DNA of 64,000 nucleotides from Felis catus (lineage: Eukaryota): positions 62,868,001 through 62,932,000 of the forward strand of contig NC_058384.1 of the NCBI RefSeq assembly GCF_018350175.1. The letters are read 5' to 3'. Below, piece by piece: positions 1,300 through 62,314 of this stretch (the stretch's first letter is position 1; every line of letters begins with the position of its first letter). Below the pieces are notes generated by a model that was given only the letters and a program-made list of their open reading frames with translations, made no database searches and was not told where the DNA came from. Made by a program: the position numbers and the translations under genes.

Positions 1300-1371
1300 C
1301 CGTATCCGGCGCATGGCCGCCACGATCTCCACTCTGCTATTGGGCCTCGGCACATCCAGGCTTCCGACGTA
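1300..1371 (-). CDS. NOS1AP: NOS1AP (CAPON) internal coding exon (exon 2), start of PTB domain
   Basis: Minus strand reads gcttgcttcctccccgcAG|TACGTCGGAAGC...CGGATACGG|GTGAGT. It is 72 nt, phase 0/0, and translates to [24 protein letters not shown], matching the remembered NOS1AP sequence ...[32 protein letters not shown]... Confidence 0.96.
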
Positions 1372-47878: not shown

Positions 47879-48334
47879 ATTTTTAATTTTTTTTAATTTT
47901 TATTTATTTTTGACACACAGAGAGACAAAGCATGAGTGGGGGAGAGGCAGAGAGAGAGGGAGACACAGAATTGGAAGCAGGCTCCAGGCTCTGAGCTGTC
48001 AGCACAGAGCCCGATGCGGGGCTCAAACTCACAGACCGCAAGATCATGACCTGAGCCAAAGTCAGACACTCAGCCGACTGAGCCACCCAGGTGCCCCAAG
48101 CCCTTTATTTTATTCTACTTTTTAAATTTTTTTTTTAAATGTTTATTTATTTTTGAGAGAGAGAGACAGAGCATGAGCAGGGGAGGAGCAGAGAGAAAGG
48201 GAGAGACACAGAATCGGAAGCAGGCTCCAAGCTGTCAGCACAGAGCCCGACACGCGGCTCGAACCCACAAACTGCGAGATCATGAGCTAAGCCGAAGTCG
48301 GACGCTCAACCGACTGAGCCACCCAGGCGTCCCC
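47879..48334 (-). mobile_element. Two tandem Can-SINEs (47879-48097, 48118-48334)
   Basis: Two reverse-complement heads; first has TSD agccctttatt. Confidence 0.93.
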
Positions 48335-48995
48335 AGATTTGAAAGCAGCCATTTCTCCAAAGAGCCCTGATCCCTTTTAATAGAAAATGGTATTTGGACA
48401 CCAAGAATGCTCACTGTCCTGGTTTCTTGGCCTTGCCAGTGGACAAGGCTAGAACATATTTTAATAACGAAATGCTTCATGAGTTCATACTTCACATCCA
48501 ATTCAAAATCAGGACAGTAGGGATTTTACTTGACCTCGTTGTTCGTACGTTAGTGTTTTCTTCCCACCAACGTAATTGTTCTCTCTATCCCACCACAAAT
48601 ATAAAGGGTCTCAGAACACCCCCACCAACACCACCATCACCAATGATATTAAAAAAAAAGTCTACAAAAGTCTATTTTCTGCACGTCTGGTATCTTTATG
48701 GTATGCACCACCAACAATGCACAATCAAATCACTGTGTTTTATAGCCAGTTGGCAGAGTTCCTCGCTTTCTCTCTGCAGGTTATGCCAACTAGCTCGACG
48801 CAGCGAGATTCACTTGGTTTTCTCAGGGACTGCTTCATTTTTAAATTTAAATAGAAAAGCATGTTAAGAATTTACACAATTCCGACTTCAAACTAGCAAG
48901 GAATCTTCAGAGAAGACAAAGTTTTATTCCTTTTCCCTCCAGGCTATTTCTTTTCTCCTAAGAGATTAAAAAAAAAATTAAATGGTAATTAAAGG

Positions 48996-54731: not shown

Positions 54732-55233
54732 CAGGGTCTGGGAGACGGGATGCGGCACACAAGAGCTCTGGAAGCCTGCAGAGCCAACCCTAGCCTTGGA
54801 TCAACGGCCTTGACCCTGTCACTTTCATCCCTTTGTACTCTGTCCCCTCGCCCGTAAAATACCAGAGCTGACTCAGAACCTAAATCTTACATGACCCCGG
54901 GGTCCCTTCCCACACGAACGCTCAGAGGCTCTTGTATCCTTCCCGTTTCTTCAACAGACCATCCCCCCTTTCCTGGTGAAGTCACATCCCAGTTACCTAA
55001 TGTCCACATCCTGGCAGACGGATCAATCCGAGCAAACAGCCAGAACACAACAGGACTGCACGTGGCGCTCACCACGTCCCCGGCTGTGGAGGTGCCCGCT
55101 CTCTGAGGCGTGGGAGGTGGGAACTTGTGTTCTTTCTTCCCTTAACTGTTCATCAATATGCTGCTCAAGCATAACCACCCTTAAGCAGCATTTATTTGTT
55201 ACTTGTCCTATGTCCTCAAATATTTACACCTTT
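54732..55233 (+). repeat. Inverted duplication, left arm (502 bp)
   Basis: Reverse complement of 59591-60092; 14 substitutions and no indels by manual alignment. Confidence 0.97.
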
Positions 55234-55309
55234 GGCTACTCCGTGGGGAGGAAAACCCCTTTGAACAATCTCAGCAGTGTGGCCTATTGTAGAGGAAACA
55301 AAAAGATGG

Positions 55310-56490
55310 CATCCCGGTTTGGAGAAAATGGCGGCAACGGTGACCATATTTTTTGGGCCCTCCACGATCCTGAAAACTCAACTCCAACAGGGCCAACAGA
55401 AGACCACTCACTGAAGACCACAGAAGTGGAGAACTACAGCAGTTGTCAGGGGCCGACAGCAAGGTCTGAAGGCAGGGGCAGCCCAGCCCCTGTAAACGCT
55501 CAATTGACTCACCAGGACTGGATCCCGCAGGGAGGAGAAACCATCTGGAGCAGAATCGAAATTGAGCGGGACAGGTAACAGGGACAAAGGAAAGAAAAAG
55601 GTTCAGAGAGAGAGAGAGAAGGAACAGAGACACCACATGTTCTAATCTAAATGAAATTGGAAAAGGAACTGTGAAGTCAGAAATCCTCCTGAACTTACCA
55701 TCCTCTTAAAAGTTAAGGAAAACAGGGGCGCCTGGATGGCTCAGTCGGTTACGTGTCCAACTCTTGATTTCAGCTCAGGTCACGATCTCACAGTTGCTGG
55801 ATCGGGCCCCACAGTGGGTTCCACACTGAGCATGGAGCTTGTTTAAGATTCTCCCTCTCAAAATAAACATTTTTTTTTTAATTCAGGAAAACATGTTCAT
55901 AATAAAAATTAATGAAAGTATCAGAGTCAACTCCATAGGCAGTTCTGAAAGAAAAAGAGTAAGGACCAAAATACCTCTGGAGATGTGGGACAATGAAAAC
56001 ACGCCAAAAAGACATTCAAGAAACATTAAAATGTAACATCATTTCAAAATGAGCTAAAAATACTGTAAATTATGCAAGACATGAAAACAAATTAGAATTA
56101 TGAAAATTCAAAAGTGACTAAATTGAAGGAAGAATCAAAAAAAATTTTTTTAATCATTCTAGAAATGAAAACTCAACTAGAAAGAATAAAAAATAAATCT
56201 GACAAAAGGCCTGGAAAGTCAGGAACATACTCAAATGAAAAACACAGAAAGATCAAAGGGATTTGAAAGTGGCAAGTACCGAAAACGGGCAAAGAAGAAC
56301 CAATATAGGGATAAGAGGGGCTCTTGCAAAACAAAATAAACCAAAGCAAGGGAACAGAATTCTGAGAATAGTAATTCATGAAAACTTCCCCCCCCAAAAT
56401 ACATATATCGAAAACTTATGAAGAGCATACTATGTATCTGTGAACACAAACTCAGAGTAAAGACATATTCTAAGAAAACTAGAAGGCATG
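55310..56490 (+). mobile_element. Old L1 5' UTR/ORF1 relic
   Basis: YY1-type start ccggtttggagaaaatggcggc; A-rich ORF1-like tract gaaaacttccc..agacatattcta. Confidence 0.55.
55725..55880 (+). mobile_element. Can-SINE
   Basis: Head; TSD aggaaaaca. Confidence 0.9.
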
Positions 56491-56674
56491 TCTATACCTG
56501 GGAATATTGTCCCATGCATGAGCTTTTCCTCAGGATCCTAGAGAATGAACTTCAGAGGACCTAATGACGAGACGCATGGATAGAAGTATCCAAAGTATTA
56601 ACCAAGCAGTTATAAAGGAATAAGGCTAAGTGAGGCTTAAAAGGGTCTATTACAATGTGCAACGACTATGCAAT

Positions 56675-57115
56675 GGTATTCGCTTCCTATGGCTGCGATG
56701 ACAAATTATCACAAATGTGGTAGCTTAGAATGACAGAAGCATATTCTGCTATAGGTCTGGAGGCCACAAGTCCAAAATCAGTTCCACTTGACCGCAATCA
56801 AGGTGCTGGCATGCCGTCCCCCTCTCCAAGGGTTCTAGAGGAAAACTCCATTCCTTACTCTGCCAGCTTCTGGTGGCTGCATCACTGGGTCTCTGTCTCC
56901 AGGATCACATGGTTCTTCCCTTTCTGTGAATCATCTGTCTCTGCTTCCTCCTTCTAAGGACATCTTTGGTGGCATCTGGAGCCCACCCAGATAATCCAGG
57001 ATAACGTCCCCTCTCGACATCCTCCTTCCTCACCTCTGCAATCTCTGCCATTTATGGGTGCTAGGGATTAGGACCTGGACACCGTGAGGGGCCACAGGTT
57101 ATTCAGCCAACCACA
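56675..57115 (-). mobile_element. MLT1(C/D)-like MaLR solo LTR
   Basis: Reverse complement starts TGTGGTTGGCTGAATAA..tgtccaggtcctaatccc; contains ggattatctgggtggg; ends tttgtca..gcagccataggaa..aatac. Confidence 0.82.
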
Positions 57116-57231
57116 ATGATCTAGGGCAGCCATTCTCTTCAATGGTGGAGGACGGGGATGGCATAGGAAAACAAGGTTTTTTAATGTTTTCAGCATAACA
57201 ACTGATGCTGGTCTTAATATTGCTATTCTGA

Positions 57232-57461
57232 GGGGCGCCTGGGTGGCGCAGTCGGTTAAGCGTCCGACTTCAGCCAGGTCACGATCTCGCGGTCCGTGAG
57301 TTCGAGCCCCGCGTCGGGCTCTGGGCTGATGGCTCAGAGCCTGGAGCCTGTTTCCGATTCTGTGTCTCCCTCTCTCTCTGCCCCTCCCCCGTTCATGCTC
57401 TGTCTCTGTCCCAAAAATAAATAAACGTTGAAAAAAAAAAATTAAAAAAAAAAAAAAAAAG
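57232..57461 (+). mobile_element. Young felid Can-SINE
   Basis: Near-consensus, CpG-intact, long polyA; TSD attgctattctga. Confidence 0.96.
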
Positions 57462-57651
57462 ATTGCTATTCTGAGACGGCAGACTGGGTATTATGGGATA
57501 GGGCAAATGAGTAATTCCAGGATACTCCATTCCATCGTTCCCTATGCTCTTGAGAACCAGAAAGTGGTGTGGCAGAAAGAACAGAGGAAATACAGAAGAG
57601 GTTAAGTAGAAACCTCGTAGTCTTGAGTTGTAGTTGAAAATAGGAGTATGT

Positions 57652-57868
57652 GGGGCACGTGGGTGGCTCAGTCAGTTGAGTGTCCGACTTCGGCTCAGGC
57701 CACGATCTCACAGTTCGTGGGTTCGAGCCCCGCGTCGGGCTCTGTGCTGACAGCTCGGAGCCTGCAGCCTGCTTCGGATTCTGTGTCTCCCTCTCTCTCT
57801 GCCCCTAACCCACTCACATTGTCTCTCTCTCAAAAATAAACAAACATTAAAAAATAACTAAAAAAAAA
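57652..57868 (+). mobile_element. Can-SINE
   Basis: Head; TSD aataggagtatg. Confidence 0.94.
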
Positions 57869-58536
57869 GAGAATAGGAGTATGAACTCACAAGTATGTTT
57901 AGATCTGTCACATTCATTCTTGTGCTCTGTCTTTATATACCAGATTCAAGTCTGAAGCAGAAAATGTATCAGGAGTCAAAGAGAGGAGAAGGGCAAGAAA
58001 GCAGGGGACGGGGGTGGAAACTATCGGCCCTCATCATGGTGACACACAACACAGAAAGGCAAATACTTTGGCCTACAGACTTGGGTACTCTGGCTTCGCC
58101 ACCGTGTGGGTGGACACCTCAGAGCCCCTAGGTCTGCCATCAAACAGATCAACCCGCCTTCTGACGGAGAAGGTGGCCCCTTGAACCCCCACCCTCTTAC
58201 CTGCAAGGAGGCAAGCGCTGGGCATATCCAGTCACTGATTCAATTACGCATCTCATCGTAAACCCACAAAAAGGCATTCTGGTCCAATAAATCAGCTTGT
58301 CAATCTGAATAACCTAGGCCTGCTCATACACGTGCCTCACTGCGTCTACATCGGTTCTCCCGGCTGCACGCGGCCGTCACCTGGGAGCTTTTAAAATCAC
58401 AGTGATGGAGGGACACCCGGGTGGCTCAGTCAGTTAAGCATCTGACTTCAGCTCAGGTCGTGATCTCACGGTTTTTTTCAAGCCCCACGTTCGGCTCTGC
58501 ACTGACAGTGTGGAGCCTGCTTGGGATATTCGCTCT

Positions 58537-58794
58537 NNNNNNNNNNNNNNNNNNNNNNNNNNNNNNNNNNNNNNNNNNNNNNNNNNNNNNNNNNNNNNNN
58601 NNNNNNNNNNNNNNNNNNNNNNNNNNNNNNNNNNNNNNNNNNNNNNNNNNNNNNNNNNNNNNNNNNNNNNNNNNNNNNNNNNNNNNNNNNNNNNNNNNNN
58701 NNNNNNNNNNNNNNNNNNNNNNNNNNNNNNNNNNNNNNNNNNNNNNNNNNNNNNNNNNNNNNNNNNNNNNNNNNNNNNNNNNNNNNNNNNNNNN
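58537..58794. other. Assembly gap (N run)
   Basis: Ns. Confidence 1.
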
Positions 58795-58940
58795 TTATAT
58801 GTATATATTATACATTTATATATTATATACATGTTATATATGTTCATATATTATATATATGGTTATATATACTATATGAGTGCTATATAAACATATGTTT
58901 TTATATATTATAAATCTTTATTTTATGTATGTTATACATC
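58795..58940. repeat. AT-rich (TA)n-like low-complexity tract
   Basis: Read directly. Confidence 0.9.
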
Positions 58941-59590
58941 TAGTAAAATAAACTTACAGTGACAGAGGAGTGCCAGGGTGGCTCTGTCAGTTAAGCGTCC
59001 GACTCGATTTTGGCTCAGGTCATGATCTCCTGGTTTGCAGGATTGAGCTCCGCATCAGGCTCCACACAGTCAGTGGCGAATCCTTGCTTGGGTTTCTCCC
59101 TCTCCCTCCCTCCCTCCCTCTCAAAATAAACACACACTAAAAATTAATAATAAAACAAAGTTACGGTGATGGAAAGACCCCAGCCCAGGAAGATGAAACA
59201 AGAAACTCTGGGGAAGCAGGATCTCTGCTTTGAAGAGCCTCACGTGATCCTGAGGTACAGCTGGGTGGCAAGGCCCTGTCATAATACAGGCCTAGGCTTC
59301 CGCGGCAGCAGGACCGAGGGCTAACCCCCGAGCAGAGGGCAGCGAGGCTGTGCCCTTGAAGGCCACGGCCCTGGCCCCCAGAGCTGTCAGCACCCGGAGG
59401 CCTCTTCCTGCATGAATTTCTGCAAAACCCAAGACCGAACTCAGTCTTTTTTTTTTTTTCTTCTTCTTCCATCTTCCTGCAGAATGTGACCCTGTACGGT
59501 TCTACAGGTTTTCAAAACTTCTCTTTTGACCGCATTAGGGACAACCCAACAACCATGACTTAAAGGGTCCCCCCCACCCAAGGAGGAATG

Positions 59591-60092
59591 AAAGGTGTAA
59601 ATGTTTGAGGACACAAGACAAGTAACGACTAAATGCTGCTTAAGGGTGGTTATGCTTGAGCAGCATATTGATGAACAGTTAAGGGAAGAAAGAACACAAG
59701 TTCCCACCTCCCACGCCTCAGAGAGCGGGCACCTCCACAGCCGGGGACGTGGTGAGTGCCACGTGCAGTCCTGCTGTGCTCTGGCTATTTGCTCGGATTG
59801 ATCCGTCTGCCAGGATGTGGACATTAGGTAATTGGGATGTGACTTCACCAGGAAAGGGGGGATGGTCTGTTGAAGAAACGGGAAGGATACAAGAGCCTCT
59901 GAGCGTTCGTGTGGGAAGGGACCCTGGGGTCATGTAAGATTTAGGTTCTGAGTCAGCTCTGGTATTTTACGGGCAAGGGGATAGAGTACAAAGGGATGAA
60001 AGTGACAGGGTCAAGGCCGTTGATCCAAGGCTAGGGTTGGCTCTGCAGGCTTCCAGAGCTCTTGTGTGCCGCATCCCGTCTCCCAGAGCCTG
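59591..60092 (-). repeat. Inverted duplication, right arm (502 bp)
   Basis: As above; ORFs 54891..55106(+) and 59718..59933(-) translate almost identically. Confidence 0.97.
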
Positions 60093-62314
60093 AGTACACC
60101 CTCGTGAAGAGGCACGTCACTCCCACACGGCACACCCAGTGCCCAAGCCCTCTCCCGAAGAAGAGGGGAGTCAGCAGCCTCCAGTGTGTGCTTCAGACAT
60201 GTGTGTCACGAGAAACACGTACAAGGCCCTGCTGGAAAAAGGAAATCATCATGAAATGCACCACGGGCAGGAGGCACCAGACGTCTGAAGGACGCTAAGG
60301 AGCAGCCTAACCTTGGCGAACTAAATCCGTGAATTCTGCGCCTGCTCACGTGTGTTTAGGGAGCAGCTACTACGTGCCAGGCCGTCTGCCAAAAATACAG
60401 AAGTTCAACCACCTCTTACGGAGCCTATGCTACGGACACAGACGACAGATTATATGTGAAATGGTGCTTAGCAATCCAAGGGAGGGCAGCAAAGCTGGGA
60501 GACCAGTGGAGAAACCAGGATTTGAGGAGGTAAGCCCCGCAAGCGGACCGTGGGGGGGATGCGTCCATCCCAGGTGCGCGAGAACCAAGAGAGCTTCGGG
60601 CCGCAGGCTGCATCACCTCAGCGGAAGAAAAAGGAGTCTCGTACCATAGAGATCTGCAGCATCTTGAAAGGGAAAGAAAGGCTGAGAGGGCAAAGCCAAA
60701 GCAGCACATTCTCTGTGCAAAAACCAACACAACCCAGACGGCAGCTGGGCCGGGCCAAAGAAGAGTTACTGGCAGCAAGAGTCACACTAGGGACCCCACG
60801 CCAGACACGGGCTTCCAGGGAAAGGTAAGGGGGAGCAGAGCCGGGCAAACCCAATGGTGTTGGCTTCATGCATCTGGTCACGATCAGTGGTGCACCTGCA
60901 ATGCGTCAGAAGCAAATCAAATATGGTGCTCGTTTCAGGATCGCACGCCCCCCCCCCAGTGGGTACCATGGGGGGTGGGGGAGGCCATAGAAGGCAGAAG
61001 TCCTTGCAGGACAGGCAGTGGTATTAACAGAAAGCCTTAGGGACACAAGGGGAGTTGCTAATACCCCTAACAACCTAATTAGCCTCGGGAACCCATTACA
61101 GACTTGTCACCAGAGACTTACACAATCCCTGTCTGAACTTCTCATGTTTCAGCAACTTCCACTCCCAAGAAAAGGCTGGCGGGAAGAAAGGGCCGCCCCT
61201 TTGCTGCGATGGCAGACTGTCCAGGGGCCGTGTTTTTACAGCCCTTGCGAGCATCCCACTCAGCGTTTCCCCGCATGTCACAAGGGGCTCGTACGGCCTC
61301 GGTCTCGTGCTCATCGCTTTGCCTCAACAGACCTTCAGGTGCCAAGTCTCTACAGCCTGACAACGTGCTCCCTCAATTCGGAGGTAGTGAAAGAGATCAG
61401 GAACTGCTCTAAGAAGTAGAGAATGCCACACGGGACCCGAGGACATCGGGCAGCTAAGGGCCTAACCCCTGGCGACCAGCTTAGGACCAGATACAGAGAG
61501 GAGGTACCTTAAACCACCTTTCCAGCTCATGCAGTTCAGGTATTAGAGGATCCTGCAAACAGGTGGCATCCAAAGCTTTGTCATGTGAGTTGTAACGATC
61601 CGATCCAAGTTCAGACTATTTAACTCTGCATCTTTTCCGATTCTCCTTCCCAAACATGGACTGGCCCAGAGGACACAATAGATGTTGTCTTTGTAGTTTC
61701 TCCTACATCTATCCCTTCATTTCCACGTGCCTCCCCCCCCTTAGTCATCCTGGTCCAGGTCCTACACCCGGGCTTTAGCAATGGCCCTCACTGCAATTTT
61801 TACAAACAGCTCTCATCCCTTTCCTCGTCCTAACACAGGACACCTGTGTGTGCATACATATACACACAGGTACACAGCTCATCCCCTAAAAATATTTTTT
61901 GCTCCCCAATGTTTACAAGATTAAGCCACATTGCTCAAGCCTCCTGGGATATAGGTCTTCCTACCTCAGTCATTTTTTCCTTTCCTTTTTTTTTTTTTTT
62001 TTTTTGTCTCTTTAAAAAAAGAAAAAAAATACTAAACCCTACCATATAAACCCTCCTCTCCCCTACCCCAACCACAGGACCACCCTTCCCTGCACTTACC
62101 TAAAATCTGCCCCTTCCCTTCATCGCTTTCACACGTGGTCGTTCCAAACCGAAAGATGCCTTGCGCCTCTTGGCAACTTCCGGAGTGGACCACGCGCCCT
62201 CGTTCCAGCCACTACCAGCTCTCATCTCGAGTACGTGATGAGCCACTCTCTGGTCCATTATAACCCACCCACCCCCTGCCACAACCCACTCCTCACAGAA
62301 CTAGTATCGTGACA

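What the first reader, a model, noticed from the sequence alone, without database searches (positions are those of the whole stretch)
54732..60092. 502-bp, ~97% identical inverted duplication around a 4.36-kb spacer in NOS1AP intron 1
Seen: 54732-55233 is the reverse complement of 59591-60092, with 14 substitutions, no indels and perfect tracts of 105 bp (54737-54841) and 127 bp (55068-55194). The arms are mostly unique-looking sequence plus a very decayed MIR-like piece, so independent TE insertion cannot explain the identity. Established: near-identical inverted arms can mediate inversion of the spacer by ectopic recombination. Inference: the spacer may be an invertible, possibly polymorphic segment in felids.
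Basis: partly seen in the sequence, partly recalled or inferred. Interest (0 to 1): 0.7.

Follow-up and report, generated by a model that had tools for sequence, protein, structure and literature searches.

The report
Self-copying inverted repeat, cat NOS1AP intron
Two mirror-image, 97%-identical copies of a 500-base stretch sit 4.4 kb apart in the first intron of a cat-type NOS1AP gene; they are likely an old duplication kept alike by copy-correction between the copies, an ordinary kind of structure that could flip the DNA between them, though no flip was seen.

Summary
The inverted repeat is real: 502 bp, 14 substitutions, no indels, only two copies in the genome, in NOS1AP intron 1. The right arm is joined to its own flank in 5 of 5 contig runs of the species, and the N in the spacer is no assembly gap. 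So misassembly and a young TE pair are rejected. Difference rises from 1.9% in the core to 13% in the inner 39 bp and about 40% in a tail beyond; the outer edge is sharp. Contig depth says the arms are identical over 255-448 bp in 2 of 4 animals tested (p 0.004-0.04); the other two fit fixed differences. A species about 85% alike has three contig ends at or inside the arm, a hint of its own repeat. Best reading: an old inverted duplication homogenised by gene conversion (0.6). The rival is a felid-era templated copy (0.25). Spacer orientation could not be tested. Closest known: human HsInv0040 and HsInv0061. The scan has noted this same class on other DNA, including this genome. Ordinary kind; new locus.

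The parts
54732..55194 (+). Left arm, core (463 bp; 9 differences from the right arm, 1.9%)
55195..55233 (+). Left arm, inner strip (39 bp; 5 differences, 13%); its letters stay linked to the inner-left flank in 5 of 5 contig runs
   Evidence: (Fisher p 0.003, chosen after seeing the data)
55234..55303 (+). Decayed inner homology tail of the left arm (17 of the first 29 letters match on the arm's diagonal)
   Evidence: anchored score 29; reached by 1 of 300 random pairs and 0 of 300 shuffles
55234..59590 (.). Spacer, 4357 bp: five SINE-like copies (all + strand), an old interspersed repeat at 56660-57200, other old unique-looking DNA; no Pfam family in the three long frames tested; orientation in other animals unknown
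59519..59590 (-). Decayed inner homology tail of the right arm
59591..59629 (-). Right arm, inner strip; its letters stay linked to the inner-right flank in the 3 runs that show that contig (X8, X13, X16)
59630..60092 (-). Right arm, core; sharp outer end at 60092/54732, with no flanking direct repeat seen
1300..1371 (-). NOS1AP exon 2 (host gene; name from recalled motifs); intron 1 runs from here past the window end to window-equivalent 77185

Best explanation
A 502-bp stretch of non-coding intronic DNA is present twice, back to front, 4.36 kb apart; it is likely an old local duplication whose arms are likely kept alike by repeated gene conversion, and a crossover between them would invert the spacer, which was not observed. 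Mechanism (inferred): a break in one arm is repaired off the other arm of the same or sister chromatid, overwriting the core but rarely reaching the inner edge, which has decayed in steps. Most such exchanges would end as conversion and few as inversion. An inversion would leave all NOS1AP exons found in place, so it would probably be near-silent.
For: SHOWN: two copies only. Stepwise decay inward, 9/463, then 5/39, then 12/29 differences, with a significant anchored tail. All four arm junctions are present in X16 and three in X6; three each in X8 and X13. INDIRECT: in X8 one contig spans three arm differences at depth 99.5, against 99 expected if all four copies agree and 84 if the differences were fixed (p 0.004, or 0.04 with 8% depth error). 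In X1 one contig spans eight differences at 49.5, against 41 expected if fixed (p 0.005-0.04 at single-copy depth 25.5). The flanks of those animals differ from the assembly by only 0-1 letters in about 800. Organism B (84-88% alike) is equally far from both arms over 55075-55233 (19 and 19 differences) and has the left-arm letter at 55195 and the right-arm letter at 55197. So the inner strip (13%, 95% interval 4-27%) is about as diverged as the two species (12%). B's contigs end, by extrapolation, at about 54775, 55073 and 60087, where a collapsed repeat of its own would break them. KNOWN: edge decay under conversion (PMC2588116 abstract); pseudohomozygous arms as the mark of conversion (PMC3723533 passages).
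Against: The outer edge is sharp, with no decayed tail (anchored score 6.5, reached by 72 of 300 random pairs) and one difference in the first 110 bp. X16 and X13 fit fixed 2:2 differences; X16 disfavours even 3 of 4 copies alike (p 0.005-0.02). X1 is compatible with fixed differences if its single-copy depth is 29 (p 0.2-0.3), and it may be the source sample. In X8, a fixed difference at 59925 alone is not excluded (p 0.12-0.22). In B the inner third of the arm lies on one contig at single-copy depth; no second copy, no double-depth core contig and no inner-right contig was laid, and the contig ends near the outer boundary did not align. The clustering test was chosen after seeing the data; two of the three overall clustering statistics were not significant (p 0.23, 0.07, 0.049).
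Confidence: 0.6

Rival explanations
1. A one-off templated inverted copy made in the cat lineage. A repair or replication strand invaded an older, short, diverged inverted homology (the inner strip and tail, about 110 bp), copied about 460 bp outward and rejoined bluntly at the outer end. The 1.9% in the core is then simply its age, with little or no later conversion.
For: One graded and one sharp junction; organism B shows only one copy of the inner third of the arm; X16 and X13 fit fixed differences; the core difference is about one sixth of the distance to B.
Against: Double depth across arm differences in X8 and X1. Three contig ends of B at or inside the arm would be coincidence. B is not closer to the left arm in the inner strip, as it should be if the strip pair were much older than the species split.
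Confidence: 0.25
2. The first reader's reading, compatible with the best explanation: the spacer segregates in both orientations among cats or felids through crossover between the arms.
For: Same layout as HsInv0040 (755/756-bp arms, 3589 bp inverted) and HsInv0061 (654/656 bp, 1674 bp) (PMC6748972 supplement); signs of exchange between the arms; perfect tracts up to 448 bp in X1 if its arms are identical.
Against: No inverted allele was seen, and none could be with these data. The arms are shorter and less alike than those two models (99.9% and 99.7%). Repeat length is the main predictor of recurrence (bioRxiv 2021.12.20.472354 passages). Conversions outnumber inversions 56 to 3 in P6.
Confidence: 0.25
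3. The arms are kept by selection, as a duplicated enhancer or as a long RNA duplex in the NOS1AP pre-mRNA that is edited or shapes splicing.
For: The two arms would pair at 493 of 502 positions in the transcript (computed). A 41-bp stretch (59664-59704) shows no listed difference between cat and B.
Against: Arm identity to B (88%) is close to that of the left flank (about 85%); no Rfam family at gathering score; no exon found between the arms. No RNA or chromatin data were seen.
Confidence: 0.07
4. Assembly artefact, or two copies of a young transposable element.
For: An N stretch lies in the spacer of the window.
Against: The genome's copy has no N there; the right arm is joined to its own flanks in 5 of 5 contig runs; 2 copies genome-wide; 12 of 14 differences are transitions.
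Confidence: 0.01

Closest known systems
HsInv0040 and HsInv0061, small human NAHR inversions (Giner-Delgado 2019, PMC6748972; passages and Supplementary Data 1 rows seen)
   Same: Sub-kilobase inverted arms of unique sequence plus old repeats around a spacer of 1.7-3.6 kb.
   Different: Their arms are 654-756 bp at 99.7-99.9% and both orientations are genotyped; here 502 bp at 97.2% in the assembly, and no second orientation is shown.
Gene-conversion-homogenised duplicates with decaying edges (Osada and Innan 2008, PMC2588116, abstract only); Y palindrome P6 (Hallast 2013, PMC3723533, passages)
   Same: High-identity core, raised divergence at an edge, and apparent loss of arm differences in some individuals.
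   Different: Autosomal, intronic, non-coding and only 0.5 kb; decay at the inner edge only; loss of differences inferred from contig depth, not genotyped.
FLNA-EMD inversion HsInv0389, recurrent across mammals (known here only through passages of PMC3961182 and bioRxiv 2021.12.20.472354; the original paper was not held)
   Same: An inverted repeat that may be older than its arm identity suggests and shared between distant species.
   Different: That one is X-linked, encloses genes, has far longer arms (recalled) and shown recurrent flips; here the cross-species repeat is only hinted at by contig ends.

Membership tests
Repeat-mediated (NAHR) polymorphic inversion, InvFEST class | Inverted repeats over 90% identical at both ends of the segment | tested here: met
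   97.2% over 502 bp
Repeat-mediated (NAHR) polymorphic inversion, InvFEST class | Arm length within the range of validated cases (654 bp to 24.2 kb) | tested here: not met
   502 bp against the range in PMC6748972; a range of cases, not a hard limit
Repeat-mediated (NAHR) polymorphic inversion, InvFEST class | Both orientations observed | not testable with these tools
   Contigs fork inside the arms; the one raw-read run had no read across the core at about 1% sampling
Gene-conversion-homogenised inverted repeat | Divergence rises at the edges of the block | tested here: inconclusive
   Met at the inner edge, not met at the outer edge
Gene-conversion-homogenised inverted repeat | Arm differences lost (pseudohomozygous) in other individuals | tested here: inconclusive
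   Depth supports it in 2 of 4 runs simulated (X8, X1), not in X16 and X13; X6 was not simulated
Gene-conversion-homogenised inverted repeat | Orthologous repeat in another species, arms more alike within than between species | tested here: inconclusive
   Three contig ends of organism B at or inside the arm, but no second copy laid
Pair of young dispersed transposable elements | Many similar copies elsewhere in the genome | tested here: not met
   2 matches genome-wide; none further in 514 kb by nhmmer
DNA transposon with long terminal inverted repeats | Target-site duplication outside the arms and a transposase frame inside | tested here: not met
   No direct repeat in the 16 letters printed outside each arm; no Pfam family above cut-off in the 3 long frames tested

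The most novel reading that the evidence does not exclude
A carnivore-wide flip-flop cassette: arms of only 0.5 kb, shorter than in any validated human repeat-mediated inversion seen here, kept alike independently in cats and other carnivores for tens of millions of years, with the 4.4-kb spacer toggling and segregating in cats. A flip would turn five antisense SINEs to sense inside NOS1AP intron 1 and could change its expression.
Probability: 0.1. Interest if true: 0.55.

Novelty: new member of a known kind. Interest (0 to 1): 0.27.

Why it matters
If confirmed, it is a compact autosomal test case for how short an inverted repeat can be and still be homogenised or flipped. It is easy to type: 14 arm differences and one long read spans it all. 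It would also be a blind spot for short-read variant calling in a gene tied to cardiac repolarisation in people (recalled, not checked here). As it stands it is an ordinary structure with no shown function.

Tried and rejected
(1) Count of letters kept in collapsed contigs: at the four groups of core differences, the left-arm letter was kept in 15 of 16 single-letter outcomes over five runs (binomial p 0.0005). I do not rely on it: X16 kept all four although its depth fits 2:2, so the assembler's choice may not be a fair coin. (2) My notebook entry 2 read X1 and X8 as plainly identical arms; the simulation softens that to the p-values given. (3) 60088 carries the left-arm letter next to the outer-right flank on one haplotype of X1 and X13; one site, explained by an ordinary SNP, so not counted as conversion. 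(4) Looking for an old repeat cut by a junction, to fix the ancestral orientation: none found by genome search, by nhmmer over 114 and 514 kb or by a local MIR-like profile. (5) Rfam: 2 weak matches below gathering score. Pfam: one weak match below cut-off. (6) Raw reads of X24: 12 laid, none across the core; uninformative. (7) Parts of the locus without cover in organism B or X1 prove nothing (a filter drops records; 89% of B's run was read). (8) Literature: no paper on this repeat in searches NOS1AP + inverted repeat + inversion (1 hit), NOS1AP + inversions + breakpoint (5), NOS1AP + felis (4), cat genome + inversions + inverted repeats + felid (0); only listings were seen. The cat variant paper PMC7581003 does not name NOS1AP in 13 of 16 supplements searched; its table of variant calls was too large to read, and its per-gene table gives no variant type. 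The felid haplotype-assembly paper and the original FLNA-EMD paper were not held, and bioRxiv supplements are closed; any of these may list this locus.
Full report
1. Observation. The two arms are as described: 502 bp, 14 substitutions, no indels, perfect tracts of 127 and 105 bp. Twelve differences are transitions and four lie in CpG. The arm matches twice in the whole own genome. It is the only self-match of at least 280 bp at 93% or more in 514 kb around the locus; the one other row of that search is a 285-bp pair at 91.6%, 96 kb apart. The host gene runs on the minus strand, with an exon at 1300-1371 and the start exon about 13 kb right of the window, so the repeat lies 17-22 kb into a 76-kb first intron.

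2. Not an artefact. The genome's own copy of the region has no N and agrees with the window elsewhere. Twenty of 24 listed runs hold 95-98% of the left-arm region's words. I laid five of those twenty, one raw-read run and one run of another organism. X16 shows all four flanks entering one collapsed arm contig and X6 shows three. X8 and X13 show both inner flanks and the outer-right flank, and X1 shows two junctions (the tables were cut). The right arm is thus joined to its own flank in 5 of 5 contig runs. X1 is marked as a possible source of the assembly.

3. Anatomy. Differences are 9 in 463 in the core, 5 in 39 in the inner strip and 12 in 29 just beyond the inner end. An alignment anchored at the inner end runs about 70 more letters with score 29, reached by 1 of 300 random pairs and 0 of 300 shuffles. 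The same test at the outer end gives 6.5, reached by 72 of 300. The excess in the last 40 bp has p 0.003 but was picked after seeing the data; overall clustering gave p 0.23, 0.07 and 0.049. No MIR-like piece was detected in the arms. The spacer holds five SINE-like copies, all on the + strand (18 of 36 outside are +), and an old repeat with 7 paralogues in 514 kb. No Pfam family reached cut-off in three long frames, and no Rfam family reached gathering score.

4. Are the arm differences fixed? The five differences of the inner strip stay with their own inner flank wherever that contig is listed. For the core I compared contig depth with a read simulation that assumes 31-letter words, 150-base reads and popped bubbles. 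X8: 99.5 observed over 59833-60087, against 99 if all four copies agree and 84 if fixed (p 0.004; 0.04 with 8% error in the single-copy depth). A fixed difference at 59925 alone is not excluded (p 0.12-0.22), and X8 shows both letters at 59757-59787 and 59832. X1: 49.5 over 59630-60077, against 37, 41 or 47 if fixed, for single-copy depth 23, 25.5 or 29 (p 0.002 or less, 0.005-0.04, 0.2-0.3). X16 (14.7) and X13 (17.9, 17.5) fit fixed differences, and X16 disfavours 3 of 4 alike. X6 was not simulated. So two of four animals look homogenised over part or all of the core and two do not. That is what patchy conversion predicts, but the measure is indirect.

5. Another species. Organism B is 84-88% alike in the pieces laid. 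One 1648-bp contig at single-copy depth joins the inner third of the arm (55075-55237) to the inner-left flank, so that neighbourhood is old. Over 55075-55233 it differs from the left and right arm by 19 letters each (20 less one outside the arm, read from the loose end; 19). It has the left letter at 55195 and the right letter at 55197. Its outer-left contig ends at about 54775, its outer-right contig starts at about 60087 and the inner contig starts at 55073, all by extrapolation. A collapsed repeat would break contigs there, and the first letters of the inner contig are arm sequence. Against this: the ends near the outer boundary did not align, and no core contig or inner-right contig was laid. 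I rate a repeat in B at about 0.6.

6. Mechanism. Shown: a real two-copy inverted duplication with a graded inner and a sharp outer edge. Inferred: it is older than its core identity, and conversion between the arms keeps the core alike (0.6). The main rival is a single templated copy in the cat lineage, seeded at an older short inverted homology (0.25). Either way a crossover in the core would invert the spacer. That is established for such repeats but untested here, and I put a segregating inversion at about 0.25. It would move no exon that I found.

7. Comparison. HsInv0040 and HsInv0061 have the same layout with longer, more identical arms and genotyped inversions (PMC6748972: passages and supplement rows). 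Edge decay under conversion is described in PMC2588116 (abstract), and conversion outnumbering inversion in PMC3723533 (passages). Recurrence goes with repeat length (bioRxiv 2021.12.20.472354, passages). Recurrence across mammals is reported for HsInv0389 (PMC3961182, passages). It works like a conversion-homogenised inverted repeat; membership is inconclusive, and membership among polymorphic inversions is untested. Earlier notes of this scan describe the same class in other genomes and in this one (unchecked AI notes), and none for this place. From them I took the leads to PMC2588116 and to the two HsInv models, and the wording of the templated-copy rival.

8. Verdict. Real, apparently undescribed in the searches run, of a known and fairly common kind. 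Interest 0.27.

Noticed in passing
window 59187-59477: An imperfect G+C-rich palindrome of about 290 bp inside the spacer next to the right arm (nhmmer self-match E 0.0006 in 114 kb, 0.002 in 514 kb), with a weak paralogue in L003 at window-equivalent 65532-65712 (E 0.0004); possibly an old MITE-like element, not identified.
   Followed up: partly
window 55725, 57232, 57652, 58410, 58972: All five SINE-like copies in the spacer lie on the + strand, antisense to the host gene, against 18 of 36 elsewhere in the window; within chance (1 in 16).
   Followed up: partly
window 55066 (mirror 59758): At one CpG the assembly's left arm keeps CG, the right arm has lost it on one strand, and X6, X16 and X13 carry a left-type haplotype that has lost it on the other strand.
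   Followed up: partly
window 59808 (mirror 55016): Contigs of X8 and X13 stop at 59807 and restart at 59809, on both arm types in X8; this suggests an unlisted variant shared by both arm types, but the short contigs that would show it were cut from the table.
   Followed up: no
window 55320-56500: A-rich stretch that looks by eye like the decayed 5' end and ORF1 of an old LINE-1 (recalled resemblance); no paralogue found in 514 kb.
   Followed up: partly
window 60351-60385: A 35-bp piece matches (5 differences) a 781-bp contig from elsewhere in X1, with the same loose ends in X8 and X13; probably a fragment of an old repeat.
   Followed up: no
window 47887-48335: Two SINE-like copies head to tail (period 236, 82% matches).
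   Followed up: no
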